The notes beneath the pieces are model-generated. The model was not told the origin of the DNA. It ran no database searches and saw nothing but the letters and a program-made list of their open reading frames with translations. DNA of 64,000 bases from contig CAYJTP010000002.1 of the NCBI GenBank assembly GCA_964373175.1, positions 40,402-104,401 on the forward strand. The letters run 5' to 3'. The position numbers and the translations under genes were made by a program. Below, piece by piece: positions 3-63,282 of the stretch (positions are counted from its first letter, which is position 1; each line of letters begins with the position of its first letter). The DNA is from an uncultured Planctomycetales bacterium (GTDB taxonomy: Bacteria > Omnitrophota > Gorgyraeia > Aquiviventales > Aquiviventaceae).

Positions 3-3000
3 GAGTTCGGAACAGCATTTTTGAGCGTCTTCCGGTTCAGCGAGATTCGCGCCAACCTGAATCTCCAAACGAACTCGGCGTGGGCCGACTTTACTCGGTT
101 TGGCATCACGCTCAGCCAACTGGCCAACCCGAGGAAGTACGAGTTGGGCGTGTTGGTGGATGATCCGGACTACCGCCTGGAGAATGTCAAGCGGACGGTG
201 ATTCGCGACCACCAGCTCCTGAGTGCGCTGAACGCTGACGCGACATTCCGAGGAGCCTTCTTTGACGTCTTCAGCCTGGCGGATCCTGGTGGGAGCCTGA
301 GTCTCGATGTGGCCCAATCCTACGCGGATCTCGTGCGGTTCGGGATCAGTGTGAGCTACTTGGCGAACCCGAAGAAGCTCGATCGGGACTCAAGCCGAGA
401 AATCGATGTTGAGTATGACTTCAATGAGACCCGAGACGGGATCATCCACGTCCAGCAGGTTCTCCAGGCGCTGCGAACGGATGCTCGGCTTCTGCAGGAC
501 TTCAACGCGGTGTATGGCTTGCGCTTGATCGTTTCGCAACTCAACCTGGATGTCAGTAGCCCCAGCCGCGATCAAAAGGCGCTCGGCTGGATTTTGGCTG
601 GGATCGTCCACGCGAGGGATGAGTACGACCGGAAACTCCCGTTTGTGTTGGAGGCCTTCACGCATGCGTTGCCGATCGTGAAGCAGATCCTGGAATCCGA
701 CAAGGCCCGGGCGATGTTACAGCGGCTCTATGGGGTTGAGATTCCTCGCGTGTTGAACCCGTTTGATCCGTCACCTCAGGTTCGTTCGGTCCGGGAGACC
801 GCGAGTCGCCTCCTCTTTGGCATCGCCTGGAACTGGATTGGCGATCAACGGATGCTGATTTATGTCAATGGGTGGCAAGAGCCCCACTACCGCTTCCCAA
901 CGGTTGAGCGATACCTGGAGGCGGTGGAGAAGATCGTCACGCTCATTGAGCTTTCGGATGAATACACTGAGATTCGGAACATCTTCAATCACGGCCTGCC
1001 ATTGGAGCTGCGCCATGACCGCGATGCGCTGACCATTGAGCGTCTCTTCGACGCGGTGCGCCACATCGGCCTGAAGGGCGCCTCGAAAGAGCAGTGGTAT
1101 CTGGATGTCCTGGAGTACGCCAAGACCTTGGTGAGCGCTGAGCGATTCAAGCGGTGGGTCGAGGCCAACAGCGATCTCGTGCTGGATCTTGGGCTGGCGG
1201 TGGATGAAGCCTTCATTACGCGCAATGCGAAGTCGCTCGCTGAGCCAATTCGCTCAGGGGTCACTGAGACGTACCAGTTCTACAACCGGCAGTTTGGCAT
1301 GGACATCCCGGCCTTCAGCATCACGAAGATCGCGGGCACGAACCTAGTCATTGCGACGGCCAAGACGCTCAGCGCCAAGCTTGCAGTTGATTTGCAGACT
1401 CATGAGATCTTTGGCGGCGAGATCGAACAAGAACTGGTCACCATTCACCACCAGGGTCGAACAAGGCAAGCCACGAAGGCTTCGAAAGCTTCGGCACAAA
1501 CGCCCACGACCACCGAACCCCGCACAGGCCCAGAACCTCAACGACTGTTGAGACCTTCCAGATTCCTTCCAGGATGGTCGCTTGCAGCCACACACTATGT
1601 TGACCCCACGGTTCGCTTTGGCGGAAGTGAGTGGTACCTCTACGACATTCTTAGTCTGAGTGCCGAGCACAAGCCGTCGCGTCTCCGATTCGAGGCGTTG
1701 ATGGAAACCAGTCTGGTGGGCAAGCCCGATCGAGGCGTGTTCAAAGCCGTTGAGAGTCGGCTGATCGTACCACGGCTGAGCCTCCGGACGAATCTGTTGG
1801 AGGGGAAACGCGGTACCATCGACCTTGAGCTGAGCAAACCGTTCATTGGTGAAGCCTCTGGGCCATGGTTGGCTGGTCTCCTGACACAAGGCGGGGGAGA
1901 ACGATGGTCGGCTGGGATGGAACTGAGGGGTTCGCTGTGGACCTTGGGCAAGACCACGCGAGGTGCAGGATTAGTCACGTTCCCGGTGTCCCTCCAGATT
2001 CCTGCTCTCCGAGGATCCTTGAACTTGACACCCGGCTTCTTCATTGAAGAGGGATTCTTCATAGTTGATGAGCAGCTAAGTGCTGGGGTTGGGATTGGCG
2101 ATGTGACGCTCTTTGCAGAACACAACCTCACCCATCTGGACGTCGTTCCAGCGGGTTTCCTCACCCCCAACACCGGTGATCGCCTCGGCCTTGGTGTTGG
2201 GAATCAGACGATTGGTCCACTCTCATTGACTGGCACGCTCTACCTCTATTCGTTGAATCCGCTGTTTAACAAGTGGAGGATTGAGGGAGGTGGGCTCACA
2301 CTCGGCATCACCGCGACGAGAGAACCCCAAGAGGCGGAACCGGAAGCTCCTGTCATGTCATCAGAGGAATCGATCAGTCAGGAACCGCAGGACGACCTCG
2401 CGACTGATCAGGCGCGCTTGGATACCGCTGCACTCAGCATAGATACTGTGATGGAAGGGGCAGTCAACCGTCTCATCGAGCGCAGAACCGTGGCGGTCGC
2501 CACCGGCCAGTTCACGCGCAAGGAGTTCGGCCGCTACGTCATTGATGAAACGACGCAGGAGCGGCTCTGGGTTTCGAGTGGCTATACGGTTGTGCGCATC
2601 GATGACAGGTACAGCCGCCTTGACTTCAACGGGACGCCCGTCCTCTACTACCGCGACACGGGTGAAGCCGGTCAGGACGTTCAGACGGAGCACCTTGGGA
2701 CATTTAAGACGAAGCTCGTGGAAGTCATCGATGCCAAGACTGTTCCGGCGGACAAAGACGGCACCCTCCAGCTTGACAAAGGCACCGTCATCGAACGACA
2801 ACACGTCGTGGTCGGCGATCCGCTTGGCCGAGCGGTGAGCCGGCACCATGTGGGTGGCCTGCTGAACGGCTATGTCGCGCTCATCGATGGTCTCGATCCG
2901 TACCTGCTGAACGGGTCCTTTACCGCCGAGCGCAGCCGGTTGGTGGACCCGAAGGGCAACACCGTTCGCTCCTATGAGGTAGTCAACCTCCATGAGAACC

Positions 3001-6000: not shown

Positions 6001-9000
6001 TCGTGATTGGCCCTGAAGCCATCCGCTTCCCTGAGGCGATTCGCATTGAGATCTTCAGGGAGGATCGGCTGGAGCGACACGGCGCCCATGAGCTCAAGCA
6101 CACCGTAGAAGTGAAGGATGGCCTCGGGAGGAACACCGAGACCCAGTTTGGCCCCGCGGCGTCCGGCGAAACCCTGGAGGAGAAATTCCGCAACTTCACA
6201 GCAGAGCGCAAACGCTACCAATTCTATTTCTTCGAAGGCGGGGAGGAGAATCTGGCCAAGTACGGCATCGCAGATAAGAGCTTGGTCACCGTCGTCCTCA
6301 ATGGCCAGGAGTACCTCGCGGCGTTGTCCAACGCCACAGTCCCTCTTGCCAACGGCGATATCGACTACCGGACGCAAAAGGGTGTGAGCATCGAGCCCTT
6401 AGACATCCAGACCTTGGGCAGCACCGAATGGTATGCCCAGTTACGGGCCTGGCTGATGGAACGGAAACTGCAGTTGGACGGAGTCGTCTTGTCCTACGGG
6501 GAGGTAAAGACCAATCGCGGCCATCTCAAGCTCATCCTCACGGGATTCACTAAGAGCCAACTGGATCCGACGACCCACTTTGCGAAGAAAGGCGAACTAC
6601 CCCGAGACGTGACCTTCCTGCGCTACAACGACGAGGCACTCTTGTTCTACCTGGGCATCCCAGAGGGCAGCGTGACCTACGCCTACGATCCAGAGAAGCA
6701 GTTTGACCGTGCCCAATACGGGGAGGCTGATGAGCTTGCCCGAGCCAACGGGTTCAGGATTCAAAACCACCTCATGGTGTATGACGTCCACTTCGCCAAC
6801 AAATCAGAAAACGAGGGGAAGAAGCATCTTCGAGAAATGGGCGTCCGGTTGGACGGGAGTCTCGCCTATCAGGTCGGTCGCGATCGGTTCGATCTGTGGG
6901 GTTTGGATTTCGCACGGCCTGGCCGGGAGTACGACGCGATCGTCTCCTACGACATCCGAGAACTCGCTGAGGTCACGGAGCCGCTTCCGGAAGAGACGAA
7001 CCGGATCACCGACTTAGCACACCTCCGTCTACCTGGCGCAACAGCGGGCCGGAAGATCCAGCACCTGAATATCGTGTTTAAGGATCATCCGGGCTATCTG
7101 ATCACAACCAACACGGTGGCCCAAGAAGATCGCGATTACCTCGATGCTTTCTCGGACCTCATCAACGGTCGGGAAGCCCATTACGACAAGGCCCGTCATC
7201 TCCTTGTCCTGACAGGCGAAGAGCCTACGGTGGTGCTGAACGCCAAAGCAGGCCGGGACGCCAAGCTGTTCTTCCAAGGCGAGGAAGTCATGACGAAACA
7301 AGATCAGTTCACCACCCATGTCCTGCGAGATGATGAAGGAAAGAAACTGAACTTCGTGAAGCGACTCTATGAGGAAAATGTCAAGCGCAACAGCCTCTTC
7401 TCGAAGATCGTCAAAGCGCTTCCCGTCATCGGGGCACTCACGTTCTTGACATCGTTGCAGATGTATGCTGGCGAGCCCGCTGTGCCTGGAGTGGGGGCAA
7501 GCCAACCCAACCTGTGGCTCTATAGCCTTGGGGTGATTGCCGCTTATGTGTTTGTGATCTTGCCAACGTTGATCGCCGGGTTGTATTTCCTCTCGAAGGT
7601 CAACGCCTTGTTCTTGAGACTGGTCGTGAATGTGAACAAACTGATCCAGAAACCGACCAACAGACCACTGGCTCCTGGGGTGAACCCGGCTGACTATCGG
7701 ACCCCTCGGTATCACGAGGTGAAGCGCAAGGTCGGAGCTGTGAGCATCATTCCAGAGCTGATCCTCTACCTGGTGAACAAGGGAGCTGCTGACACCGAGA
7801 TTGAGCTTCAACGAGACTTCTGGAGGGCGGTGATCGATTACCAGATGAATCGCAAGCTCGGGGGGTATCGCTCCAAGAACTCGCTGCTCACCGCTCGTCC
7901 GTATGTCTTGGATATCCATGAGATCTCCAGCTTCTTGAAGCGTGCTCGTCAACAGGGGATCGATCCGATGACAGATGTCCCAGTGAACGGTCAAACACTC
8001 CAAACCGTGATCGAGTCACGGGCATGGGACGAGGCAGTGATCGACCAGGTGACCCAGGCGATTCGAGCCTTCTTGAGGGCTGGGCGACAGCAAGAGAACG
8101 CCGAACGGAAAGCCGCCAGGCTCCGCGGGAAGTTGCTTGAGGAAACCCCCTATCCGGTTGGGGCTTGGAAGTTTTCCTTCAAGATCCTCCCTCGGATGTT
8201 GAACGTCATGTTCCGGACACCCTTCCGAGGGGAAAGGACGCCGAACCTCTGGCAGGCCTCCAAGTTTTTTGGACTCATCATTGCCGAGACGATCCTGTCC
8301 GCAGTCGGGTTAAGTGCGCTGATGTTTGTCTATACCGCTCCTGAAATCTCTGCCTTTCTGCCGATGCTCTTTGGCCTCATCCCATTTACCGCGGTCGTGC
8401 TGCTCAATTTCTGGACTGTGCTGTACCTGAACTATGCAAGCCTGTTTCGGATCGTTCGGGGTCGGTTGCATCTGGATAACGTCTCCACGTGGAGCAGCGC
8501 CCAGCGCGTGTTTCGGCAGCTTCGACGCCAGTTGAAGCCTCAACTGAGAGGAATCTTTGATGTGTTCTACCGGCATGAAATTGACAACCTGCGGTTTGCG
8601 AATGATCAGCCAGGGAGAGGGCCGCTCGTCAGTGAAGACGAGCACACCGCGTTGCTCCATGCCCTTGAGGGAGGCCGGTTAATCAAGCCCCAGACCTTCG
8701 AAGCGACAGAAACCCTCAAGCGATTCCTCAACAAATGGGCAAAGGTCCAGGCAGACTTTAATGCACACCCTGAAGAAATTGAAGCGATCCTGCAAGGCGT
8801 CGAAGATAACCGGGAAGACTACCGGCTCAATGTGATGCACTCAGGCTATGGGGAACTGGTGTGGGTGCATTTCGAGCAGCTGGATGTCTTGGCTGAAGAG
8901 CCTGGAAAAAGAGAGGTGGTCACAAAGTTCCGGAAGCTCATGATGGTGCACCCCGAGGAGTGGACCCTGTTCATTCACGACCGCGTTGGCAATCAGCTGA

Positions 9001-12000
9001 CCAGACAAGACGAACAATTCCTGTCACCTCGTCGCAGAAGCCTCACCGCTGAATCGGCCGCTGCGTATCTCGCCCAACGCTTAGGACAACCGCTCGATGA
9101 TATCAAGGAGCAAATCGAGAAATGGGCCAACTGGCGGTTGGAGAACGCTGGGAAGACTATCATCGCCACGATCTTTAGCCATCTGGAAACCTATAAGGCA
9201 TGGGCAGAGGTCCTAGGGATTCCTGAGACACAGAGGGAGGCGTGGGCACGAGCCAGGGTTAAGGTGGTGGTCAAATATGACGAGTATGGACAGAATCCAG
9301 GCCGAACCGCCGACTGGGATCATGTCAATCAACGCTTTGGCAACATCCTCACCACTGCAAACCAGACGTCCTATGAAGCCAGGGAGGCGGCCATATCGGC
9401 CTGGCATCACGATGATCAGCATGCGGCAATCCTTGTGGGAGCGCCACCTGCCGAGATGAGAGGACATGGAACTAAGGTCGGGGGGTGGGCGTTGGTCATT
9501 CCCTATTTGGATAGCGACCTTGTCTATTTCTTGGATATTGGCCATCGGTTGGCATTCGATAGTGTGATGTTCACGCCGTTCATTTCCCGACAATTTGAGA
9601 CCAATCAGTCCCTGGCCATGGTGTCGCCGGTCTACTACGCGTATGAGGAAAACTACACGTCAACGAGCCGGAGCATGAGCATTGGCCATGAGGTGTGGGA
9701 CCGGGATATCCGCTCTATCAAAGACGTCATCGATAGCGAAGACGACTGGGGCAAGAAGTATGCTCGTGTGAGCGCCTTCGAAGCCGTCAACGCGTTTCTG
9801 CCAGAGTACAACTCTGAGGATACCGCTGGCGGGGTGCGGATGCTCAAGCTTGGCTACGACATCCGCCACACGGAGCTTGTGGATGTTCCGCAGTCTGTGG
9901 AAAAAGTGCACTTCTTGGGACGCTCCTTTGTGCTGCGCTTTGGCTCAACGGTCCCAGAACTCCTGCTCGGCCGTCCAGTGTGGAAGTTTCTCGGGTCACC
10001 CTTTGTCCACTGGACCGCGAAGCTTGGCACATTCATCAGCTTTAGCCACTACCTGCGCATTGCCTTGACGGCGGTGACGATGGTGAGCTTTGTCGTGTTG
10101 AATATGTTCTTCCCCTGGTCCCTCTTTACGCTGCTCCCATTTGTTCCAGTGTTTCTGACGCTCAACTTCTTGGCGAACCAGGCGGTCAATGCTCAAACCG
10201 TGTATCGGTACGAGCAGCGCTATGGGCTCCTCAAGGGTCTGGTGATGTTCTACAAGGATTTCCCGAACCTCTTCATCGATTACGTGACCTACGAGGTCGG
10301 GAACTTCCGACAATTCCTTGAGGGCCTACGCGGGTTTGGAATGTTTACATTCAGTCCAAGGATTAGCAATCTCTACCGCCATACGTTCAAAGCCCTTTGG
10401 AATGAACCGACTGTACGGACAGGGGTCAAGCTGGCGGCATTCCTCACGCCATTTATCCTGCTCATGCCGCTGCATCCAGTGAAGCTCTTGCCCAACCTTG
10501 GCTTTGTCGTGGCGGTCGTCACGTGGTTGGTGGGGCCGTTTATTCGGAATGTCCGTACGCCGTTTTCCGTCAATCCCATTCAATGGGCTAGACAATTGGC
10601 GATGGATGTGTTGCTGGTGCCTTGGGCGTTGTTGCGTGTTTTTGTAGACATAGGAAAAGACCTGAAAGAGAAAGTAAAGAAATGGCACGCAGGCCAACAG
10701 CGGTTGAACGTCATGCTGAGCGTGGCTCCACTTCTTGCCTGGCCGATGCTTCACAGGGCTATGCAAACCTCAGGTGTGACGTGGGGCGATGTGGCGTATT
10801 ACTCGTTAATGGGTATCACAGCTCTGGCAGTGCTGGGATCGATTGCCTCCGCAATTTATGAGATGAGGTACCGAACAATCTATTTTCAGCACTATGGAGA
10901 ATACGAACTAGAATTGAAAGAGAGAGCGGACTCACATCCTCTAGTGAGAATCCTCGTGGGACTTGGTGTAGCTACAGCCGTTCCTCTTTTTATGGTTGCA
11001 GTTGATGGGGTTAACCTGTCGGTCGTCATGATGATCGGCATGATACTGGCTCTCATGTTTGGAATAAGGAACCTAGATACGTCACTGGGAGTGATCTGGC
11101 AAAGTCGTCCTCTCCAGGTTAAAGAGCTGTTCAAGACAACAATGCCATTTCTCTCCGCTGAGTTCAGCGATAAGTTGCTGGAACAGTTGTGGTATGTGAC
11201 GCGACCGTATCGTGACAACAAGGCAGCTCTAGATGCGATTGCAGAAATCATTAGTTCTATGACGGAGCCTGGACGGAAACTCAAACCTGACTACTTTAAA
11301 CGGGGTGGTAAGTACTACACGACTAAATGGTGGAGCCATGGATATGGGGCCTATGAAGAGTACGAGGAGGAAGTAAGTGAAGAGGAAGCCACTCTCCCTG
11401 AGGTAGTAACCATCCCTGATGTAGCTAAAATCACAGAACTACTTAGCCATCCTAATGAACTTAACCGATTAGTGGTGGAACGTCTCAAAACAGTACAACA
11501 GTTAACTTCCAATACAGATAGCTTGAGACATCGTGGTCGCGGTGAAGCGTCTCCTGGGGCGTCTGAGACCGGGAACACGAAGCACCCTGGGAAACGACAC
11601 CAGCGATATCCTGGCAAGGTTGAGCGGGTTGGCTCTGAGGACAAGACCCAGGACGTCCATGTGACTGCGACGGTCAGTCCTGATCGGAACATCGCCTTTG
11701 AGTATCCGCCTGACGCCACGGTGCTAACCCGCTTGACGCCCGAGGAAGAACAGATGGTCCGCCAGAGTCTCCAGAACTGGCTGGCGACGCTCGAGCATGC
11801 GCCGCCCTTGCAGGCGAGGCAGATTCCGCTGTTGGTCACCGACAATCTCGATGAGGTGGCCAGACATCAGGCCGGCAGAATCGAGATCAACGCCGCCATC
11901 CTTCGTGGGCCACCTCCTGGTGGTCCCGAAACCCCCCAAGACCGCCAACTCTTCCTGCACGGTGTGATCTATCACGAAGGCTATCACTTCCTCTCCCCGC

Positions 12001-51000: not shown

Positions 51001-54000
51001 CGTCGCAACAAGACATCAAGCGAGGGCTCATCCGACTGTTGAAGTCGGAACGCGCGACCATACCTCCATCCTGGCCGGGATCCCCTGAGACCCGCAGGGA
51101 GCAACTGGTCGGGCAGATCCTGAGCGCCATCCAGGATCTCACGCGACTTGCCGGTGAAGGAAAGATTCAGCGTTACTCGACGGCTGAACTCGTGGCAGCT
51201 CATGTCAGGAAGATGACCGGTGATCAGACAATTTCCGACCATGAAGTCCGGCAATTGATCGCGCATCGCAAGAACCTCCAAGATGCCATGGGGGTCTTGC
51301 GGAAGAGCACGGAGTCCTTCCACTTCCAGCCAAAGCCGCGTCCGAAGAAGACACCCGGATCGAATCCGCTCAGGGTATTCGCCGCCCCGCTGCTCGTGGC
51401 CATCGGCCTGTGGGTCGGTGGGCTCGAAGGGCACTTGCTGGCCGGGCTGGGCGTTGTGCTCAGCGTGATCGGGTTTGGCGGGCTGCTGCTGGCAATGCGA
51501 CCGGTCAGACAAGAAACAGAATCAGAACTCAAGCCAGGCGAGATTGCGGGAGGCGTCCAGCAGGAGCTTGGCGCGGTCCAAGCATCCAGCCCATCCAAGA
51601 ATCAAGGGGACCTGGTCAGTCTTGACCAACATCGCCCACAGCGGCAGGGGTGGCGAGGTATGCTTGGCATCCAGCAGTTTTCCAGTCACCTTCGCCAAGA
51701 CCGCGTCAATCTCGGCGTCTTTCCCTGGGACGAGGCCACGCAGCGGCAGTTCGCCCAGTCGTTCAGCACGCAACGCGGGCCACAACGAGATGGGGATCAC
51801 CGAGTAGGGAGCGCCCGTATCGATGATGGCCAGATGGTCATCACTCCACCCAACAGACTGTCTGAACTGGACTCGACCCAAGAGTCGAGACAGGAAGAGT
51901 CGACGACGACGGCGGCTGGCCTCGAGGTCCCGCACGCGCTGGACCTCAAGGGCGACGCGCATATACGTGGATTCCGGCCTCGAGGAACAAATGCGGGATA
52001 TGCGGCCAGTCAAGCTGCTGGCGAGCTTTCGCGAGCACCCGGATTAGATGCGGACCAACAGCCAACACTCGCCGGTGCGCAAAGGCGACCCATTGATTCG
52101 GGTAGCGTGTGGCCAATTCGGCATAGTGCGCAAAGGCCCAATCGTACTCCCGCTGAAGAGCCTCTGGAAAGAGCGCTGTTTGAACCGACATCAGTTTCAC
52201 CGACCTCCACCTCGACTATAACCGACGATGAAGAGGCTGTCAAGCCAGACCGCTTCTCCGACCTTATCGGTGGGCTCGAAGGGCACTTGCTGGCAGGGCT
52301 GGGGTTTGTGCTGAGCCTCGTCGGGTTTGGCGGACTGCTGGCGATGCGGAAGATTGGCGGAAAGGAACAGCTAACAGGCAAGGCAAGAAGCGCGAATAGG
52401 CAGAAGACAAGCCGTCAAGGAATGCCGAGTTTTTCTTCCACAACTTTCAAGCGGGCGTCGAAAGTCTTCATCTCGGATCTGATCGCACGGATTTCAACAA
52501 GGATCAGGTCGGCGTCTTTCCGAAGGTTGCCGACGTCTTTCGACAAATTATCCACCTTTGTGCGAAGGTCAACGAGCCCTTCAGCGACGAGGCGGATCTC
52601 ATGGCGAAGCGACTCGATGAGCGCGCCGACTTCGGTCACCGTGAAGGCGTCTTTGGAAGGCCGTTTGGATGGAGGCATGAACGCCATTCTACGCAGGACA
52701 GGAGCACCAGTCAAGGAACATCGGGATGACTCGGTTGCGCCAGGTGGCCTCCTGACCCCGATGGGGGGATTCGTGCTCATAGGGATCGGGCTCCTGGCCA
52801 AGCATCTGATGGGGCTTGCGCTCTTCGGGACGGTGGCGGAAGTGGTGGGCGTTGGGCTGACCGCGCTGTGGGCAGGTTGGAATACGACTCTTCATTCAGC
52901 GTCTCAGGTACTGTCGTGGAGGGTGAGAGCGCTACCGAAAGATCTCATAGCCATCACTGCGCAGCACGAGGACTTTTCCACGCAACCACCGCTCAGGTCT
53001 GATCTTCAACAAGTTCCTGACAGCCTGGGTGATCGTTTCAGCCATGGGTGGGTGGATGCGGATCACGACAATTCCGGACAGCTTCGAGGGCAGGAAATTC
53101 AGGAAGTCCCGGTCACGCGTGAACAGGATCGCGCCTTCCCGTTCGGCAAGCGCAGCGATGGTCGCGTCGGTCGCACGGGGGGACGGACGGATGACGTGAT
53201 GCCCCACCCGGCGCAGGAAGGCTTCCGTCTGTCCAGGGATATGTTCGTCAAGCAGCACACGCACAGCGAGCTACGCCTTGAAGGCCACGAATTCCCGGTG
53301 CTTGAATTGCTCAGCGGCGTACTGCAGGGCGGCGCGAATGTGCTGCGGGGTCAGCTGGGGAAAATATTTCTTGGACGTGATCTCGGTGCTCGAAACCCCG
53401 GCTCCAAGCAGCTCAAGGACATCCGAAACCAGGATGCGAGTCCGCCCAAAGCAGGGTTGGCCATGACAGATGGCTGGGTCCACGTCGATCAGCTTCTCAA
53501 GGGAGTTTTTCATCGCCACCTTCACACTCCTCCTAAGAAGGATAGCATCCTCGCTCCTCGTCGTCAAGGCACGTCTTCTGGAGTACTCAACGTGGGGTTC
53601 AGCGCAGAGACCCTTGCCGGGCGGTGGCCGGAGGGTTCGCCCATCTGGATCGCGCCGGTGGTGGGGCTGCTCGGGTGGGAGTTCCTCGTGGCGGGGTTGA
53701 AGATGGGCGGCCTAGAGGGGGTGGCGCTCGCGGGCTTTGGATTGGCACTTGGCCTCTTCGGGTTTGGCGGGCTGCTGCTGGCGACGCAACGCGGTGGGAG
53801 AGTAAAGGGGAGGGAAGCACGGCTTAGAAGCTACCGGGTTCCCAAAGAGGTGGCCGAGCGTTATGTCACTCCGGAGATCCTGACACTCTTCGAAGTGGCT
53901 GAACAACTTGGACTCAAGATCAAAGCAACCGGCGGGACCGCGCGGGATTTTGCCGTGTCTGTCATGACACAACACCCGCTTCGACTCCCTCGCATCACCA

Positions 54001-57000
54001 ATTTTGATGTGGCGATCCCACTGGCTCCCCATCAGAAGCCCTCAGAATTGTTCAACGAATCAGCCTACCAGAGGTTTGCGCAAGCCTTCGAACAGGCCCT
54101 TCGAGCCCGTGGCGTGCTCAAGCCAAACCAAAAGATGCCTGAGGTGGATTTCATGCCAGGCGTGTATGTGGAAGGAGCCGGCTACATTTACCAGATTAAC
54201 ATGAACATCCGACCCACAAAGGAGCGGCCTGAGATTGGCGAGGCATTTTCGATCAGCAAACTGGCGGTCAAGAAAGAAGGCGACGGGTTTGTGATTGAAG
54301 ATCACGTGGGCGCTATGGCCGACATCAAGGCTAAGCGCCTTCGGATTATCGCCACACCCGGACGGTTACTCACCGAAGGGATGCTGGGGAAGATGTTGGG
54401 TCGATGGGCGGATTACCGGAAGCTGGGATTTGACTTTGACCGGCCATCGAGGCAGCTGATCCAGCAGTCGGTGAACGCGCTCCGGCATACCACACCAGCA
54501 GACCAAAGCACCTTTGTGAGCTTGCTCCTCGACAACAGCCAAACGCAGCAGGATCTTCTCTTCGTGATTGACCAGTATCGATTAGACGAGGTCTTGGGGG
54601 TACGGCGAGCCTCCCTGGCAAGACGATTCAAACGGCATGAGCGCGCGTCGACGGCTTCCTCCGCGGCTCCTGATCCAGTCAAAGCCTTCGTCACACAGTA
54701 CCTGCAAGCCAACTACGGCCAGTTCAACCTGTGGGCCAACACCGAGGCCGTTGTGGATGCGGTGGTGAACCGCCTGTATCCGTCGCGGGATCCAGCAGCG
54801 ATTGAGCAAGCGCGAGAGCAGTCGGGGATTGGCGTTGCGGGAAGTGACTTTACGAGGCGCTATGATGACTATCAACACGATCAGAAACTGGAGCTGACCT
54901 ATGAGCTCATTCGAGAATTTCTTACAGGCGGAGTGGTCGTGGATGTGGGGGCTGGGAAGAATCTGTTGGCGCGGAAGCTGGCTGAAGAAATCCCAGGGAT
55001 CAAGGTGATCGGGACGGATGTCTTGGATTGGCATGAGGAATCGTCCGATCCGAGAGTCGAGTATCGAAAACAACTCACCCCTGAGCGAGTCCCTGTTGAG
55101 GATGAGAGCGCCGACGTCGTGATACTCCAAAGCGTCCTCCACCACATCACGGATGAGCATCTTGACAGTCTCTTGAAGGAGGTCCACCGAATCCTGAAGC
55201 CGGGTGGGAAGGTGCTCGTGTTAGAGAACACCTTCCCGGAGACACCCGAGGTGCTCCAGACCGTGAGGGACCAGGAAGGCTTGTCGGAGTTGAGCAAAGC
55301 CTTCCTGAGCTTAAACCCAGCGCAACAGCAAGCCTTCTTCGAATTTATGGATTGGTATGGCAACGTCTTTGTGAAGCAGCAGTCTGACATGCCCTTGTCC
55401 TTCAATTACAAGTCGATCGAAGCCTGGAAAGCACTGTTTGACCAGCATGGATTGGTGACGCGCACGGATCGGTTCATCGGCTTTACCCCGGGCCGCTTCC
55501 ACTGGCTGGCCACCGGCCTCTTCGTGTTTGAAAAAGTGTCCAGCGAGCCTCCTATCTCATCCATCCTGAAGCGCCATCCGTACTTGAATGAAACGCAACT
55601 GAAGCGTTTCGCGCAAGGCGAAGCCGGGTTTGCGGTCACCCGGAGACTGAGATGGACTTTGGAGAAGCTGGATCAGTTTCTGACCGGTTTGGAGCAGGTG
55701 AGCGGGATCCCCTTGGACAAGGCAGTACAACTCGTTGTGGAACCCGCTGAGATGTATCTGATCAAGCAGGTTCGCGATGAGCGGGCAGGCCAATATCTGA
55801 TCAACCTTGGCAATTCCATGTATCCTCCAGATGTTGTCATCCAAGCGGCTGGGTACGTAGGGACTCATGAAGGCCATCACTACCTTGACGAGCTTAATAT
55901 GGTTGACGCTTCTGGTCTTGCAGAAATGGGGGGTTCTGGTGGCACGACTCGCCGAGGCTCAATCTTGGAGCAGTTTGATCGGATGGTAAGCGACGCGGCT
56001 CGAATGAATCCGATGATGCGTGGGCTAGCAGGTCGTCCAGATCTATTGTGGATGGTGGAAGAGCTCAGCGTTGATAGTGATACGGCTAACACACTCGGTG
56101 CTCGCGTCGTCAAGAACTATCTCCCCCTTGCGGAAGCTCGATTGGCTTATCAGGAACGTCAAGCAGAGAGTCCTCGCGGAGTTGTTCCTGGTCTTGCGGA
56201 GCTCGTCCGGTATGAAACCGTCGCACGGGAATATGCATGGATCGAAGGGGTCGATGGGGCATCCCGCGAACGTCTCAAGCGCGTGGAGGAGGGGTACGCC
56301 AAGTTAGCCAAGAAGGCCAAAGACTACTCGGAGGCCAAATACAAGTTCTTCCTCGGTGTGTTCACAAGCATCTACCGGATGACGAGTTTGCTCAAACCAC
56401 GTGGTGGGCGGTGGCCGAAGCGGCAGCCGTGGTATGACCGCCTGGAAGCGCGCTACGGGTGGTTCGTGGGACAGGTGCTGGCGCCAGCGCTCAGAGAGTC
56501 CGGATTCTTTGTCGGTGGCGGGAGCTTGCTACTCAGTTGGGCCTTTGGGATTCCGCTTGAGCTGAGGCCTCCAACCGTGGCACTGCTAGCTGGATTCCAA
56601 ATCCTGTGGCACCTCCGCCATCTACCGGGTGCCGAAGGCAAGACCTTGGCTCAGAAACTCGCCGCGGCGTTCTCCGCTGAGAAACTCCTCATCACCGGCC
56701 TGACGGTCGCGCTTCCCAGCCTCCTGCTGCTAGATCCCAGCAGCCCATTCCATCCGATCGGCGTCGGCTTCGTGGCACTCATCCTCGGCGTTGCGTCCTT
56801 ACCTCACGCCTTCATCAACCTCGTCACACCTATCCAAGATGGTCGTGTGGTAGGTGTCCGCGACGCGGGATCTGATACCGTCGGCAGGCAGGCGGATGGG
56901 TCTGGTCGCACTTCGCAGGACTCACCGTTGACCATCGTGGAGATGGTGTACGCTGACCTAACCAACACAGGAGGCTTGGAAAGCTACTTGCGGGAGCTTC

Positions 57001-60000: not shown

Positions 60001-63000
60001 GGAGCTGGGGAAGGTTGCGCAGCGTGAGGAGGACCTTGCTCGGGGCCGGCATGATCCTCACAGGGATCGGCAAGTTGATGGGACACCGACCGCTTCTCGC
60101 AGTCGGGTTATCGCTCGCTAGTCTTGCCGTCAGTCTGCTCGCGTTGAAGGTCTTCCCGCAGACCTACCGGAGTATTGAACAAGCGGTCACGCGGATCAGT
60201 CAGGCAAAGCCTCTGCCGACCATTGTGCTCATGGGCAGTTGGCTCATCGCGCTGGTGTCGTTGATGGCCGTGTGGAGCGTGGGGCTGTTGATTGGAGGGC
60301 GGATTCTTGAATGGGTGACTGCCGGCTTCTCTCTGCAGGGAATCGACACGTCGTTCTTGAGTCCGGTGCCGTGGGTCGCGTTGCTTGCGGGCGGGGTGTT
60401 CCTGGTTAAGGCGACCCTCCTGTTTGGCTCAGACAATGGGGTGCCATTCGAGCGCTCATCCCAGGTGCGCCCAGCCTTGAGGACGAACCTACTCTTCTAC
60501 GGAACGCTCCTGTTGGCCAATCTCCTGATGGCGTTGGGGTTGTCGTCCCATATCGGCACGCTGATCTTCCTCTATCAAAAACCCATGCCGTTACACCACG
60601 GGGATGGGGTCATCGCGCTGGCTGGCATGGCGGCGCTGTGGGGGATCGTGACTGGCAGAACCGCCTCGGTGCTGTGGCGAGAGGTGGGCCAGCGGCTTTC
60701 GGCGTGGTGGGCGCGCCACCGCCACTTCTTCGTGCCGTTTGGCCTGATGGCGACGATGAACGGGCAGACGACTCCGTCCTACTACGAGGCGGTGCAGCGA
60801 GTCTTGCCACCTCACATGGCTGGTCGTCGTAAGGTAGCCCACTATATCGTGGAGCGGTTTGGGAGCCGATGGGACGAAGCGCTCTCCATGATGGGTGGCC
60901 ATCTCCTTAACCGCACCCGTTGGCCCTTCATCGACCGAGCGCTCAAGGCTGGGCTTTCGATCACGGCTATTGCAGATTTGCTGCATTACTCCCACACCGT
61001 GGATGAGCAGAAGACGGGGGTCAAGACATTGCTAACGATAGAAGATTTCCCTCCCGAGTTTCAGGAGCTCGTCCTGACCCATAGTCAAAGCCGCCGAGGA
61101 TTTCATCGCGGGTCGATCAATTTACTGTGGACGCTCTATGAGGTTCTGAGACCTACTGGAAGTCCTGCGCCATCGGCCATCGAGTTTCCCGCATGGCTTA
61201 AGTTTGGATCGAGTGCGTCCCAGGCTGAGCGAGCGCTTCTCGAAACTCTTGAACGACGCGGCACGGCGGTGACTGATGAAGAACTCGTGCAAACGGCACG
61301 GAAGATTTTTGAGCTTCAAAAAGCCCAACGTCGTCGCTTGATTCCTCTCTATGCGTCTGACGGTGGTCCCTTGAGTGAACAAGACGTTCCAGTCCAGTTC
61401 CTCTCACCCGACTCCCCCCTCAAGTTTACCGTCCGGCAACGTGTGTTCTACGAGTTTCCTTCGCAGCCAACGAGCCATCCATCGCTTGATGCCTGGTTGA
61501 CCGATGAGTCACTGTATCAGTCGTTACGGCCGTTTCTCGCCAATCAACCTGAGGTATCATTCCCGCTGCTGTTGGCGAGTGTTGCCTTTGAGCCTGAGCG
61601 CGCCGATCGCATCGACACTGTTGAAGAGCGGTTCCTGCAAGTGTGGTTGCATCTGAGCAACCAGCTCCCAACAACTGTTCGGCAGCGGTTGCAAGGTCTC
61701 GAATCAACCATGGAGCAGGCATTTCGCCTCTTTGCTGCCCAACAGGGATTTGTACGTGTCAGAGCACCAACTGGAAGTCGATGGTTCAGCCACACCGCTC
61801 ATCTGTTGCACCGCAACACGATTGAGCGGTTGAACAGCCTGTACCGCGACGCAGGGTATCGGTTGGTGTTTGAGGATAGCCAGTTCTGGTGGGAACGAAA
61901 CCTCGCGACGGTGCCGAAGACAAACGGCTCTGTTTCACCCTTTGGAGTTGGCTTGGGCCAGCTCTTCACCCCTGAGGTCTGGCGGGATCTTGCCCAGCGG
62001 CTTTCGGCGTGGTGGGCGCGCGGGGTCTTAGGCGTGAACGGGAAGGTTAATATTCACGAGAAAAAGGGTACGAAAAAGGGTACCGGTTCTCATTTCTCGA
62101 CGCCGGACACGACCCCCATTACCTTCGGAGCCGATGCGGGTTTTGGGGAGCTGCTGAGGCGGCTTGGACAGGTGCCTCGAGCCTTCCAACAGTTGTTGCG
62201 CCGCGCCGTGCTGCCCATCACCACGCTCCAACCCGGCCCCTCGGTACCTGGTACCGGAGCCACAAGACCCAAGGCTCAAGGGAACGGATCAATCCTGCGC
62301 AGGCTCAACGAGCGGTTGCCGAGGAGCTACTGGTTCAATGGGGTGGCGATCGGGACCTTAGGCTTAGCCGCCTATTGGCTCGGGCTGATTCCGCACAGCG
62401 GGGAAAACTGGTTGCAAGTCCTCGCCAAAACTGTCGGCGGCTTCGTGGTCTTCTGGACGGTATCTGATACGCTCGCCAAGCGCAGCACCAGCGAGCCCAT
62501 CACCGGCAAGGGGCTGCGCGGTGCCGCCAGCGCCGGGTTGATTAACGGCCTGTACACGCTGGGCTTCTTTGCGCTCATCGCGCTGATCCCTGAGCCGATC
62601 GGTGCGCCGGCGCGTGTGTTCTTGGTGACGTTCCTCTTGATTGCGTCACGAAATTGGATTTATTCGAAGCTGTTCCACAGCCACGCCAAGGAGGCGCAGG
62701 ATGCGTGGCTAGTCAACCGGAGAAAAGAGGCCTACTGGTTTAGCCGTCCCGCCTCCATTCTGAAGAATACGATCATCCAGGCGCTCCTGCCGCTTCCGGT
62801 GCGGGGGCCGGTCGAGGCGATCATGACCCAGTGGTTCCAGCAGTACTACGCCTGGGCGTTCCATGTGCGCCGTCCATCACTGATCAGCCGGCCGCAGCGG
62901 GTTTCGGCGATCCAGCGGATGGTCTTTCCGTGGCATCGGGGTCCGGCGCTGATGGTCTACGGCCTGGTCGCGCCGGTGGTAAACGCTTGGGGAGGTGTGC

Positions 63001-63065: not shown

Positions 63066-63114
63066 AGACATGAGGCACAGGAGACCAGACACAACAAATG
63101 GGTAGTAAAAAGAG

Positions 63115-63167
63115 GGGTCAGACCCTGTGCGGGAATTTTGTCAGTTTTCGTGCGAAGGGTCTGACCC
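63115..63167. terminator. Palindromic hairpin element (copy 2) 50 nt after the giant-ORF stop. It is a possible terminator or REP-like element, but it has no U-tract.
   Basis: The arms gggtcagaccc (63115-63125) and gggtctgaccc (63157-63167) form 11 Watson-Crick base pairs, plus one more pair t26:a56. The loop is 29-31 nt. The stem is the same as in the in-ORF element at 36428-36480, and the loops are related (about 68% identity) in inverted orientation. The downstream sequence gagcacgctcac is not T-rich. Confidence 0.4.
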
Positions 63168-63253
63168 TGAGCACGCTCACGGCAGGGGAACAGGGAAAGA
63201 GGGGACTGTCAAGAGTCTTCCAGGGCTCTCTTAGTACAAGATAAAAAAAGCAC

Positions 63254-63282
63254 TTGACAAGCTTTTTGAAAGATATTATTAT
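63254..63282 (+). promoter_or_regulatory. Sigma70-like promoter (TTGACA - 17 nt - TATTAT) in an AT-rich intergenic island, with an upstream A-tract
   Basis: In gcacTTGACAagctttttgaaagatatTATTATatgg the -35 hexamer is at 63254-63259 and the -10 is at 63277-63282. The A-run aaaaaaag at 63243-63250 is UP-element-like. The downstream gene starts at 63361. Confidence 0.5.

What the first reader, a model, noticed from the sequence alone, without database searches (positions are those of the whole stretch)
3..63065. A 5'-truncated giant ORF of more than 63 kb encoding a mosaic of housekeeping-type enzyme folds, signalling domains, TM clusters and repeats
A single frame carries sense-oriented domains that are normally separate genes, with no stop codon between any of them and TM clusters interspersed. 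Twenty-one thousand stop-free codons cannot occur by chance. Independent genes would not all share one frame.

The architecture combines an RHS-like N-terminal region, a multi-pass membrane region and many catalytic modules. That suggests a giant surface or membrane-anchored multifunctional protein. Its length and composition are far outside ordinary bacterial proteins.
Basis: partly seen in the sequence, partly recalled or inferred. Interest (0 to 1): 0.8.

Follow-up and report, generated by a model that had tools for sequence, protein, structure and literature searches.

The report
Giant membrane-threaded multi-enzyme gene
The window is almost entirely one real gene of at least 21,020 codons for a membrane-threaded chain of enzymes and signalling modules; this kind of giant protein is already described in Omnitrophota-type ultrasmall bacteria, but this copy is sequence-unique and almost free of cysteine.

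Summary
Frame +3 is open from nt 3 to the TAG at 63063-63065 (21,020 codons; about 483 stops expected by chance). Coding periodicity is uniform throughout. Profile searches confirm the mosaic: an equivalog-grade (d)CMP kinase, transaldolase, acyl-CoA dehydrogenase, GT4 glycosyltransferase, ROK, CofD/YvcK-like, HAD, NAGPA, four methyltransferases, an RsbW-like ATPase, two receivers, HTHs, TPRs and an alpha/beta-hydrolase, plus about 44 hydrophobic helices. Catalytic motifs are intact. The "RHS-like" N-terminus has no support, and the first 4,800 aa are dark. Repeats are few.

This is a new, sequence-unique member of a known kind: the giant "multi-enzyme / Archaeovorin-type" proteins of Omnitrophota. 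The downstream neighbour is a signal-peptide, Tiki/ChaN-like protein with homologues in 59 loci, mostly Omnitrophota MAGs. There it again follows an unbroken giant ORF or forms the N-terminus of one.

New here: extreme cysteine exclusion (9 Cys; 0.04% against about 1.2% in ordinary neighbouring ORFs), shared with related giants and with signal-peptide proteins. Also new are tight TM hairpins whose K/R-free loops imply that their flanks are cytoplasmic. These two signals disagree on sidedness, which stays unresolved.

The parts
3..63065 (+). Giant ORF, 5'-truncated by the window edge; 21,020 codons plus TAG stop
3..7526 (+). aa 1-2508: soluble region before the first TM helix. It is domain-dark, and aa ~500-1500 are beta/NSTG-rich and acidic. 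Only two short modules (aa 216-476 and 1051-1200) have any relatives.
   Evidence: AF2 unusable
7527..11066 (+). aa 2509-3688: first TM cluster (about 10 hydrophobic helices, including tight hairpins 2758/2782, 3353/3374 and 3647/3670)
14487..14984 (+). CofD/YvcK-like module (aa 4829-4994), partial match
   Evidence: Pfam CofD 49.8 bits; NCBIfam TIGR01826 43 bits, below cut-off
15702..16319 (+). (d)CMP kinase module (aa 5234-5439), P-loop GPAGTGKST; a partial CMK-like repeat lies at aa 5109-5183
   Evidence: Pfam 260 bits; NCBIfam equivalog TIGR00017 242.3 vs cut-off 135.55; PDB CMKs E 6e-44
16902..17183 (+). HAD-type hydrolase module (aa 5634-5727); a paralogous stretch lies at aa 4072-4344
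18291..18710 (+). NAGPA phosphodiester glycosidase-like module (aa 6097-6236)
   Evidence: Pfam 36.3 bits
19266..20186 (+). ROK-family (sugar kinase/regulator fold) module (aa 6422-6728); divergent and contains no Cys
   Evidence: Pfam 34.4 bits; no PDB phmmer hit; Cys positions
22860..23453 (+). HemK/PrmC-like methyltransferase module (aa 7620-7817)
   Evidence: NCBIfam 63.8 bits, below cut-off
23769..25055 (+). Two isolated TM helices (aa 7923-7941 and 8333-8351) bracketing a ~390-aa helix-rich segment; a candidate extracytoplasmic loop
   Evidence: AF2 low confidence
28362..30668 (+). Methyltransferase (aa 9454-9583), RsbW-like HATPase_c_2 (aa 9900-10028), methyltransferase (aa 10123-10222)
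31002..33884 (+). Two response-regulator receiver modules (aa ~10334-10440 and 11203-11294) with the DD pair and phospho-acceptor Asp retained
   Evidence: Pfam 75.9 bits, 2 stretches
37188..37934 (+). Two to three helix-turn-helix modules (aa 12396-12644)
   Evidence: HTH_23 44 bits; internal repeat
38466..39566 (+). TM cluster 2 (aa 12822-13188; 5-6 helices, two paralogous hairpins)
40344..41567 (+). Acyl-CoA dehydrogenase module (aa 13448-13855) with the catalytic IYEGTNEIQ motif
42798..43937 (+). Transaldolase/FSA-fold module (aa 14266-14645). The Schiff-base Lys motif IKIPAT is retained, and Gln replaces the Glu aligned in solved transaldolases.
   Evidence: Pfam 110 bits; NCBIfam 180 bits, below cut-off 367; PDB alignment
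44766..44825 (+). Hydrophobic helix ending in the only lipobox-like motif (LALVVAAC, Cys14941)
45135..45707 (+). TPR array (aa 15045-15235)
45795..53777 (+). Zone of TM hairpins alternating with TPR-like helical modules (aa 15265-17925). It includes paralogues 15739-15946 and 16309-16515 (dN/dS ~0.30) and a thrice-repeated helix LLAGLGxVLSxxGFGGLL.
54891..55262 (+). SAM methyltransferase module (aa 18297-18420)
56382..56825 (+). Module with TM hairpin (aa 18794-18941) shared with the giant ORF tails of L024, L027 and L004
56970..58073 (+). GT4 glycosyltransferase module (aa 18990-19357) with EX7E motif
   Evidence: Glycos_transf_1 115.7 bits
59214..59855 (+). Alpha/beta-hydrolase (S33-like) module (aa 19738-19951) with GTSLG nucleophile elbow
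60090..63002 (+). C-terminal membrane region (TM helices at aa 20030-20181 and 20844-20862). Its modules aa 20491-20633 and 20762-21000 are shared with the giant ORF tails of L031, L026 and L028.
63114..63168 (+). Long stem-loop about 50 nt after the stop codon (dG -35 to -38 kcal/mol, z -3.8), with no U-tract
63254..63282 (+). Sigma-70-like promoter match TTGACA-17-TATTAT (11/12) in front of the partner gene
63361..64000 (+). Conserved partner gene (runs off the window). It has a signal-peptide-like N-terminus, invariant HIQ[DE]AHxNYExQ and VEGGxGD motifs, and weak Tiki/ChaN-superfamily similarity; homologues are ~480-600 aa.

Best explanation
This is a single protein-coding gene of at least 63 kb, with its start lying upstream of the window, from a PVC-superphylum bacterium of the Omnitrophota type. 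It encodes a polytopic, membrane-threaded 'enzymes-on-a-string' protein of the kind already described as Archaeovorin-type or multi-enzyme giant proteins.

Shown: the frame is real, coding and under purifying selection. It carries about 20 recognisable modules: nucleotide, sugar-phosphate and acyl-CoA enzymes, four SAM methyltransferases, a GT4 glycosyltransferase, an alpha/beta-hydrolase, an RsbW-like ATPase, two receivers, HTHs and TPRs. Catalytic motifs are intact. About 44 hydrophobic helices separate the modules, many arranged as tight hairpins.

Inferred mechanism: the hairpins staple a long chain of active soluble modules to the membrane. This co-localises sugar and nucleotide metabolism, methylation, glycosyl transfer and phosphorelay/HTH regulation at the cell envelope of a host-dependent cell. 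My preferred topology (about 55%) is that an N-terminal dark region of about 2,500 aa and a few loops face outward, while the cofactor-dependent modules stay on the cytoplasmic face. The gene works with a conserved, separately promoted, signal-peptide-bearing Tiki/ChaN-like partner. Its near-total lack of cysteine is a family trait whose cause is not settled.
For: The open frame and coding signal are. Domain calls are; CMK passes NCBI's equivalog cut-off. Catalytic motifs are retained in CMK, TAL, ACAD, GT4, the hydrolase and both receivers. There are 44 hydrophobic helices. Ten tight hairpins have 1 K/R in 62 loop residues against 43 in 300 flank residues (P = 0.004), which by the positive-inside rule puts both flanks in the cytoplasm. 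TM counts between most cofactor-dependent modules are even. The partner gene has 21 homologous loci in GTDB genomes, of which 13 are titled Omnitrophota/Omnitrophica, 4 Planctomycetales/Planctomycetia (including the 3 closest) and 4 untyped, plus 38 metagenome loci. In all 8 high-GC loci with a full flank, the 10 kb upstream is one unbroken ORF ending 150 nt or less before the partner. In many low-GC Omnitrophota loci the partner domain is the N-terminus of ORFs of more than 2,300-3,600 aa. Short modules of the window ORF recur in those giant tails and in 'partial' Omnitrophica proteins that fill whole contigs. The relatives' tails carry the same themes of methyltransferases, HTH/sigma-like modules and a pentose-phosphate enzyme. 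The repertoire and TM density match the published descriptions. Sense-strand promoter-like sites are depleted inside the ORF (2 against about 8.5 expected), and a strong match appears only after the stop.
Against: The source genome was not found in any collection, so the phylum is inferred from a neighbouring gene, and the three closest loci are titled Planctomycetales. The N-terminus is missing, so the SecA-DEAD/C39 hallmarks and a signal peptide cannot be checked. TM helices and topology rest on a home-made hydropathy and K/R analysis, not on a trained predictor. One interval (HTH to ACAD) and helix 14922 do not fit simple parity.

Cysteine exclusion argues against cytoplasmic residence. The window ORF has 0.043% Cys. 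In related loci, signal-peptide ORFs have 0.37%, ORFs with no SP and no TM have 1.20%, and small polytopic proteins have 1.10%. Neighbouring Cys-free long proteins with PEPCK and FBPase domains in relatives carry classical signal peptides.

There is no expression, proteomic or processing evidence for this gene. All enzyme modules except CMK score below curated family cut-offs.
Confidence: 0.7

Rival explanations
1. This is the same gene, but most of the polypeptide, including the metabolic modules, is extracytoplasmic. It would form a cell-surface 'coat' or an exported enzyme array that works in the periplasm, at the contact zone, or in the contents of an attacked host cell, where host ATP, SAM and sugar nucleotides would be available.
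For: Cysteine exclusion is at the level of signal-peptide proteins and about 10-30 times below cytoplasmic-type and small polytopic ORFs in related loci. Cysteine exclusion is a known mark of exported proteins in bacteria lacking oxidative folding systems (PMC2823432). In relatives, adjacent Cys-free long proteins with PEPCK and FBP aldolase/phosphatase domains start with classical signal peptides. The partner domain with its signal peptide is fused to the N-terminus of giants in other lineages. [quoted passage not shown]
Against: The modules need ATP, SAM, FAD/acyl-CoA, NDP-sugars, a phosphodonor or DNA (HTH). The tight-hairpin K/R pattern and TM parity favour cytoplasmic flanks. Exporting more than 10,000 residues in blocks of thousands is unprecedented. 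HTH and sigma-like modules recur in related giants and make little sense outside a cell.
Confidence: 0.3
2. This is a polyprotein. The ORF is translated as one chain but cut into separate enzymes and membrane proteins, for example by the embedded hydrolase, by the Tiki/TraB-like partner, or by signal peptidase II at the internal lipobox-like site. In effect the giant gene would be an operon without stops.
For: The modules are individually intact and are normally stand-alone enzymes. One of only 9 Cys sits in a lipobox-like motif directly after a hydrophobic helix. The partner belongs weakly to a superfamily that includes metalloproteases. Published work raises cleavage by N-terminal C39/S8 domains as a possibility.
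Against: No protease domain apart from one alpha/beta-hydrolase was found. There are no recurring linker or cleavage motifs, and no inteins. No Rfam family matched in the window, and published work found no catalytic RNA in such ORFs. The Tiki assignment is below the Pfam threshold. Proteomic evidence in the literature is too thin to tell.
Confidence: 0.12
3. This is an artefact or a non-functional frame: an assembly chimera, a decayed gene array, or an untranslated open frame.
For: The source contig could not be found in any public collection, so the assembly cannot be cross-checked.
Against: The chance probability is about 10^-210. Codon periodicity and Cys exclusion are uniform over all 63 kb. 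dN/dS is about 0.3 in a dark region. Catalytic motifs are intact. The arrangement of giant ORF followed by partner is the same in 8 of 8 related loci, and one related 3,284-aa tail is 100% identical in two independent metagenome assemblies (L030 and L032).
Confidence: 0.02
4. This is an RHS/YD-repeat toxin or a repeat-built giant adhesin (RTX/Bap-like) with accessory domains.
For: aa ~820-1500 are beta-former-rich with YD-flavoured strings, and DSSP on a low-confidence model shows a run of beta-hairpins.
Against: No RHS_repeat, Ig-like, cadherin or RTX profile hit appears even at relaxed E-values. No YD consensus motif is present. Self-similarity is almost absent. The model has pLDDT 34.7.
Confidence: 0.04

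Closest known systems
Archaeovorin-type giant proteins of Omnitrophota (type: the 39,678-aa protein of Velamenicoccus archaeovorus LiM; West-Roberts et al. 2023, bioRxiv 10.1101/2023.11.21.568195)
   Same: Both are a single ORF of tens of kilobases with dozens of TM helices. Both have a long N-terminal region without recognisable domains and a mix of glycosyltransferases, SAM methyltransferases, TPRs and divergent sugar-phosphate enzymes. Sequence conservation is poor in both.
   Different: No NUDIX, glycoside hydrolase, HEAT, SecA-DEAD or C39/S8 domain was found in the 21,020 aa available, though the N-terminus is missing. This copy carries an equivalog-grade CMK, an acyl-CoA dehydrogenase, a transaldolase-fold module, receivers and HTHs. 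GC is 58%. Direct sequence comparison with the type protein was not possible with these tools.
'Multi-enzyme metabolic cluster' class of long Omnitrophota proteins (Nielsen & Lui 2026, bioRxiv 10.64898/2026.06.07.730766)
   Same: Many distinct Pfam families tile the chain with none dominating. The recurring families listed there are all present here: methyltransferase PF08241, HATPase, HAD, GT group 1 PF00534, receiver PF00072 and ROK PF00480. The chain is membrane-anchored, and the sequence is unique as in about 80% of that catalogue.
   Different: Membership of that collection or lineage is not shown. The TM density found here (about 1 per 480 aa by a crude method) is somewhat higher than their mean. 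Neither cysteine exclusion nor the Tiki-like partner appears in that paper by text search for 'cysteine'.
Fused housekeeping enzymes such as bifunctional PanC/CMK, AroA/CMK and CMK/Der (NCBIfam NF010004, NF008816, NF007071) and eukaryotic multi-enzyme chains (AROM, CAD; from general knowledge)
   Same: An intact CMK and other pathway enzymes are embedded in a longer polypeptide. The plausible benefits are co-localisation and stoichiometric expression.
   Different: Those fusions join 2-5 enzymes of one pathway in soluble proteins of under 2,500 aa. Here about 20 unrelated modules are threaded through the membrane in a chain of more than 21,000 aa.
Giant adhesin ORFs of symbionts (e.g. Chlorobium chlorochromatii; cited in PMC10066038)
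   Same: Extreme length in a small-genome, partner-dependent bacterium.
   Different: Those are built from tandem adhesion repeats. This ORF is essentially non-repetitive and rich in enzymes.

Membership tests
Omnitrophota giant multi-enzyme / Archaeovorin-type proteins | Single uninterrupted ORF of more than 10,000 aa | tested here: met
   At least 21,020 codons, open to the window edge
Omnitrophota giant multi-enzyme / Archaeovorin-type proteins | Numerous TM helices spread along the chain (roughly one per few hundred residues) | tested here: met
   44 hydropathy-defined helices in clusters and hairpins. A crude predictor was used; DeepTMHMM was not available.
Omnitrophota giant multi-enzyme / Archaeovorin-type proteins | Mosaic of many different Pfam families: glycosyltransferases, methyltransferases, HAD, ROK, receiver, HATPase, TPR, sugar-phosphate enzymes | tested here: met
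   the lists to compare against are
Omnitrophota giant multi-enzyme / Archaeovorin-type proteins | NUDIX hydrolase, glycoside hydrolase and peptidase domains listed as consistent Archaeovorin content | tested here: inconclusive
   No NUDIX or GH was found in the 21,020 aa available, only one S33-like alpha/beta-hydrolase. The 5' part of the gene is missing.
Omnitrophota giant multi-enzyme / Archaeovorin-type proteins | Divergent SecA-DEAD domain and/or N-terminal C39/S8 peptidase with signal peptide | tested here: inconclusive
   Absent from the window part. These lie near the N-terminus, which is outside the window.
Omnitrophota giant multi-enzyme / Archaeovorin-type proteins | Encoded in an Omnitrophota genome | tested here: inconclusive
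   The source contig was not found. Homologues of the partner gene are in 13 Omnitrophota-titled, 4 Planctomycetales/Planctomycetia-titled (the 3 closest among them) and 4 untyped MAGs. The rare module hits are Omnitrophica 'partial' proteins.
Omnitrophota giant multi-enzyme / Archaeovorin-type proteins | Detectable sequence relation to other giant ORFs | tested here: met
   The relation is patchy. Modules aa 18794-18941, 20491-20633 and 20762-21000 match the syntenic giant tails of L024, L027, L004, L031, L026 and L028. Modules aa 216-476 and 1051-1200 match long partial Omnitrophica/JGI proteins. Comparison with the V. archaeovorus type protein was not possible.
Omnitrophota giant multi-enzyme / Archaeovorin-type proteins | Type II secretion / type IV pilus and glycoside hydrolase genes nearby | not testable with these tools
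   Only 935 nt of flank lie in the window, and the source contig is unavailable.
   No profile hit at E<=0.01 over aa 1-5000, nor at E<=10 over aa 801-2500. No YD consensus motif. The structure model is unusable (pLDDT 34.7).
(d)CMP kinase (module level) | Score above the curated equivalog cut-off, with an intact P-loop | tested here: met
   TIGR00017 scores 242.3 against 135.55. GPAGTGKST is present and the module aligns end to end with solved CMKs. Enzyme activity was not tested.
Transaldolase (module level) | Curated family cut-off and the catalytic Lys/Glu/Asp set | tested here: inconclusive
   The score is below cut-off (180 vs 367). The Lys motif IKIPAT is retained, but the Glu aligned in solved transaldolases (LEVSPE) is Gln here (IQVSPE). 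Reading this as FSA-like rests on my recollection of residue roles.
Classical two-component system | HisKA plus HATPase_c histidine kinase paired with a receiver that has the acceptor Asp | tested here: not met
   The receivers carry DD and the acceptor Asp, but no HisKA was found. The ATPase matches the RsbW/SpoIIAB-type HATPase_c_2 model at 28.5 bits.
NRPS/PKS megasynthases and repeat adhesins (other giant bacterial proteins) | Condensation/KS/AT/carrier domains, or tandem Ig/cadherin/RTX repeats | tested here: not met
   None appear among the Pfam or NCBIfam hits, and internal repetition is almost absent.

The most novel reading that the evidence does not exclude
Cysteine exclusion marks a whole gene neighbourhood of 'exported metabolism'. 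Under this reading the giant protein and its signal-peptide-bearing neighbours in relatives (long proteins carrying PEPCK and FBP aldolase/phosphatase) mature and act outside the producer's cytoplasm. They would work at the contact zone or inside the breached host cell, using host nucleotides and cofactors to process host metabolites: CMP, sugars, sugar phosphates and acyl-CoAs. The giant gene would then be a delivered, membrane-inserting metabolic effector array and not a tethered cytoplasmic scaffold.
Probability: 0.2. Interest if true: 0.85.

Novelty: new member of a known kind. Interest (0 to 1): 0.55.

Why it matters
Giant ORFs take up a sizeable share of the very small genomes of Omnitrophota-type bacteria, yet no mechanism is established for them. 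This copy is unusually informative because many modules are readable and look catalytically intact, including a (d)CMP kinase that passes a curated equivalog threshold.

Three observations make the open question of which side of the membrane these proteins work on directly testable:

- Family-wide cysteine exclusion at the level of secreted proteins.
- Tight TM hairpins whose charge pattern argues that their flanks are cytoplasmic.
- A conserved signal-peptide, Tiki/ChaN-like partner that is a separate gene in some lineages and the N-terminus of the giant in others.

If the exported reading were right, it would mean central-metabolism enzymes operating outside the cell that makes them. If the tethered reading is right, these proteins are membrane-stapled metabolons of unmatched size, and the cysteine avoidance needs a different explanation, for example protection of a very long, slowly made polypeptide.

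Tried and rejected
- **Word-indexed homology searches.** Searches with aa 1-1500 and aa 4801-6800 gave nothing, or only a weak CMK hit.
- **Collection scans with the giant's N-terminus.** Scans of GTDB genomes and JGI metagenome contigs with aa 1-1000 gave no relatives, so the source contig could not be recovered or extended upstream.
- **Exhaustive HMMER of aa 1-1200.** Against 1.84 billion representatives it found only 7 weak module hits, too few for an alignment.
- **AlphaFold2, single sequence.** aa 801-1600 gave pLDDT 34.7 and aa 7900-8380 gave 44.9. Both are unusable, so no fold searches were run.
- **PDB sequence searches.** The dark regions (aa 1-4800, aa 6901-9500) and the ROK module gave nothing.
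- **Relaxed Pfam scans** of three dark stretches gave nothing credible and no RHS hit.
- **tRNA and Rfam scans** of the window gave nothing.
- **Self-BLASTP** found no repeats; tile-wise phmmer found only a few paralogous modules.
- **Colinear orthology rejected.** BLASTP and phmmer against syntenic giant tails show only three short shared modules at shifted positions.
- **Segment-wise amino-acid composition** did not separate 'inside' from 'outside' segments.
- **General sulphur sparing rejected.** Met is only slightly lower in long ORFs.
- **Avoidance of near-stop codons rejected** as a cause of low Cys, because Trp and Tyr are at ordinary levels.
- **L001**, the closest partner homologue, has too short a flank to show a giant ORF terminus.


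Full report
**1. The observation**

Frame +3 of the + strand has no stop codon from nt 3, where it runs off the window, to a TAG at 63063-63065. That is 21,020 sense codons. The other five frames hold 305-921 stops each. With the ORF's own position-specific base composition, about 483 in-frame stops are expected, so the chance probability is about 10^-210.

The frame is also coding in character. Codon-position GC is 0.646/0.423/0.674, and GC2 is the lowest position in each of 21 consecutive 3-kb windows. Two internal paralogous modules lying in a region without any Pfam enzyme domain (aa 15739-15946 and 16309-16515, 50% identical) give dN/dS of about 0.30, with saturated dS.

**2. The domain mosaic**

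Pfam and NCBIfam confirm these modules, in order (aa positions, with aa 1 at nt 3):

- CofD/YvcK-like, 4829-4994
- (d)CMP kinase, 5234-5439: Pfam 260 bits; NCBIfam equivalog TIGR00017 scores 242 against a cut-off of 135.55
- HAD hydrolase, 5634-5727
- NAGPA, 6097-6236
- ROK, 6422-6728
- HemK/PrmC-like methyltransferase, 7620-7817
- Methyltransferase, 9454-9583
- RsbW-type HATPase_c_2, 9900-10028
- Methyltransferase, 10123-10222
- Two receiver domains, about 10334-10440 and 11203-11294
- Two to three HTHs, 12396-12644
- Acyl-CoA dehydrogenase, 13448-13855
- Transaldolase fold, 14266-14645
- TPRs, 15045-15235
- Methyltransferase, 18297-18420
- GT4 glycosyltransferase, 18990-19357
- Alpha/beta-hydrolase, 19738-19951

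Apart from CMK, the enzyme modules score below the curated family cut-offs, so they are divergent.

Catalytic signatures are nevertheless retained:

- CMK: P-loop GPAGTGKST
- ACAD: IYEGTNEIQ
- GT4: EX7E
- Hydrolase: GTSLG
- Both receivers: the DD pair and the acceptor Asp
- Transaldolase-fold module: the Schiff-base Lys motif IKIPAT

In the transaldolase-fold module, the Glu aligned in solved transaldolases is Gln. I recall that as the state in fructose-6-phosphate aldolases; that is memory, not a test.

The first 4,800 aa match nothing in Pfam, NCBIfam or PDB sequences. The 'RHS-like' label has no support from profiles or motifs, and the single-sequence structure model is unusable. Internal repetition is minimal.

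**3. Membrane segments**

A Kyte-Doolittle scan gives 44 candidate TM helices. Ten of them pair into tight hairpins with connecting loops of 14 aa or less. Those loops contain 1 K/R in 62 residues. The 15-residue outer flanks contain 43 in 300, and the protein-wide frequency is 11.9% (binomial P = 0.004). Under the positive-inside rule this places both flanks of each hairpin, and hence the adjacent large soluble modules, on the cytoplasmic side.

TM counts between successive cofactor-dependent modules are mostly even. The first helix (aa 2509) reads N-out/C-in, so the dark N-terminal region of about 2,500 aa could face outward. This analysis is crude, and helix 14922 does not fit.

**4. Where it comes from**

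Neither the giant's N-terminus nor a multi-domain segment has real homologues among 5.8 billion protein clusters. The source contig is absent from the GTDB representatives and the JGI metagenome contigs. An exhaustive HMMER search of aa 1-1200 against 1.84 billion representatives gives 7 weak hits to two short modules. The named hits are 'partial' hypothetical proteins filling entire short contigs of Candidatus Omnitrophica MAGs, with one labelled Elusimicrobia; an unnamed 6,058-aa JGI protein also hit.

The only other sequence in the window is the 5' part of a downstream gene (ATG at 63361). It has its own strong sigma-70-like promoter match (63254-63282, 11/12) and follows a stable stem-loop (63114-63168).

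An alignment of this partner protein with its one database relative retrieved 21 loci in GTDB genomes: 13 titled Omnitrophota/Omnitrophica, 4 Planctomycetales/Planctomycetia (including the three closest, at 51-53% identity) and 4 untyped. It also retrieved 38 metagenome loci at up to 59% identity.

In all eight high-GC loci that have a full flank, the entire 10 kb upstream is one open frame ending 150 nt or less before the partner. In many low-GC Omnitrophota loci the partner domain is itself the N-terminus of an ORF of more than 2,300-3,600 aa that runs off the locus. So the gene pair is conserved and in some lineages fused.

The syntenic giant tails are not colinear with the window's C-terminal 3,000 aa. 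Only three short modules are shared, at shifted positions. Their domain themes are the same: methyltransferases, HTH and sigma-like modules, and a 6-phosphogluconolactonase-type domain. One related tail is 100% identical in two independent assemblies (L030 and L032).

**5. Comparison with the literature**

- Giant ORFs above 20 kb are common in all Omnitrophota classes. [quoted passage not shown]
- West-Roberts et al. describe Archaeovorin-type giants with glycosyltransferases, methyltransferases, TPRs, divergent glycolytic-type enzymes, dark N-terminal regions, and SecA-DEAD and C39/S8 domains.
- Nielsen & Lui describe a 'multi-enzyme metabolic cluster' class. The same Pfam families recur there (PF08241, PF02518, HAD, PF00534, PF00072, PF00480), 94% of the proteins are membrane-targeted, and about 80% are sequence singletons.

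The window's ORF fits this kind by length, TM content, repertoire, poor conservation and neighbourhood relatives. The N-terminal hallmarks and the phylum cannot be verified. I therefore file it as a new, sequence-unique member of a known kind.

**6. What seems new**

*Cysteine exclusion.* The ORF has 9 Cys in 21,020 residues (0.043%) against about 278 expected from base composition. Four of them form two CxxC pairs, and one lies in a lipobox-like motif after a hydrophobic helix. Related giant tails have 0.03-0.11%. P0004 has none in 6,058 aa. Cys is the only residue with a large shift between long and short ORFs of the same loci. In the first 21 related loci the Cys content by ORF length is as follows:

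| ORF length | Cys content |
|---|---|
| 150-500 aa | 1.24% |
| 500-1,000 aa | 0.57% |
| over 1,000 aa | about 0.14% |

With a simple signal-peptide heuristic over 55 loci, partner genes excluded, the classes are as follows:

| ORF class | Cys content | Share with no Cys |
|---|---|---|
| Signal peptide only, under 1,000 aa | 0.37% | 59% |
| No signal peptide, no TM, under 1,000 aa | 1.20% | 2.5% |
| Polytopic, under 1,000 aa | 1.10% | 12.5% |
| Long ORFs, 1,000 aa or more | 0.11% | 39.5% |

[quoted passage not shown] Neither giant-gene preprint contains the word 'cysteine'.

*Exported-looking metabolic enzymes next door.* In relatives, the long Cys-free proteins that follow the partner gene carry PEPCK and FBP aldolase/phosphatase domains. 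They begin with classical signal peptides and have few or no other hydrophobic segments.

*The partner family.* Its invariant motifs are HIQ[DE]AHxNYExQ, VEGGxGD and GGFH. Nine of 21 members give sub-threshold hits to the Tiki/ChaN superfamily model PF04187.

**7. Mechanism and its uncertainty**

The core reading is one gene for a membrane-stapled chain of active enzyme and regulatory modules, working with a secreted partner. I hold this at about 0.7.

Sidedness is unresolved because two independent signals disagree. Cofactor needs, HTH and receiver content, hairpin charge pattern and TM parity point to cytoplasmic modules. Cysteine exclusion, at the level of secreted proteins (a recognised export signature, PMC2823432), and the signal-peptide-bearing enzyme proteins next door point to extracytoplasmic exposure. 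I prefer the tethered-cytoplasmic topology with an outward N-terminal region (about 55%) over a mainly exported array (about 30%). Post-translational processing into pieces is possible under either (about 12%).

Sense-strand promoter-like sites are depleted inside the ORF: 2 weak sites against about 8.5 expected. That fits a single transcription unit, but it is weak evidence.

**8. Verdict**

This is a real and striking gene that was correctly spotted. Its kind is already described, so it is not categorically new. Its value lies in the readable, intact modules and in the cysteine, hairpin and partner observations, which turn the localisation question into concrete tests.

Noticed in passing
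window 63361-64000 (+); homologues in L003-L061: The gene after the giant ORF encodes a signal-peptide protein of a conserved family of about 480-600 aa, with invariant HIQ[DE]AHxNYExQ, VEGGxGD and GGFH motifs. Nine of 21 members give sub-threshold hits to the Tiki/ChaN superfamily (PF04187). In many low-GC Omnitrophota loci the same domain is the N-terminus of an ORF of more than 2,300-3,600 aa, which is a gene-fusion link to giant proteins.
   Followed up: partly
window 63114-63168 and 63254-63282 (+): A very stable stem-loop (dG about -35 to -38 kcal/mol, z -3.8, no U-tract) lies about 50 nt after the giant ORF's stop. An 11/12 sigma-70-like promoter match (TTGACA-17-TATTAT) follows it, ahead of the partner gene.
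   Followed up: partly
window 44802-44825 (+), aa 14934-14941: One of only nine cysteines sits in the ORF's single lipobox-like motif (LALVVAAC|TKPT), directly after a hydrophobic helix. This could be an internal lipoprotein-type processing or acylation site, or chance.
   Followed up: no
window 21210-21221 and 26625-26636 (+), aa 7070-7073 and 8875-8878: Four of the nine cysteines form two CxxC pairs (CDNC and CLSC) in domain-dark regions. They may be metal or redox sites that were kept despite the general Cys exclusion.
   Followed up: no
window ~43098-43106 (+), within the transaldolase-fold module: The Glu aligned in solved transaldolases (LEVSPE) is Gln here (IQVSPE), while the Schiff-base Lys motif is kept. 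As far as I recall this resembles fructose-6-phosphate aldolases. The module also has two insertions relative to solved transaldolases.
   Followed up: partly
window 19266-20186 (+), ROK module: The ROK-family module contains no cysteine at all. As I recall, canonical ROK kinases and repressors use a Cys-containing zinc motif, so the module may be a zinc-free variant or not a kinase.
   Followed up: no
L003 11550-16499 and 16532-20152; L006 11539-19779; L004 10799-14395; L014 2808-7379: In relatives, the partner gene is followed by further long (1,200-2,750 aa), nearly Cys-free proteins that start with classical signal peptides. Two of them embed an FBP aldolase/phosphatase domain and a GTP-type PEPCK domain, so gluconeogenic enzymes are predicted to be exported.
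   Followed up: partly
window 44141-54875, - strand (e.g. 52243-52215): Six of the eight antisense promoter-like matches within the ORF fall between about 44 and 55 kb. They include an 11/12 match (TTGACA-17-TATAGT) at 52243-52215. Overall the antisense count is at shuffle expectation, while the sense strand is depleted (2 against about 8.5).
   Followed up: partly
L030 1-9855 and L032 1-9855: Two contigs from different metagenome records (309 kb and 216 kb) carry 100% identical 3,284-aa giant-ORF tails. This shows that such open frames assemble reproducibly.
   Followed up: no
L002 10001-15016 (P0001): An Omnitrophica MAG encodes a 1,671-aa protein annotated '(d)CMP kinase' with the CMK domain embedded in the middle. 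So CMK embedded in over-long proteins is not unique to the window.
   Followed up: no
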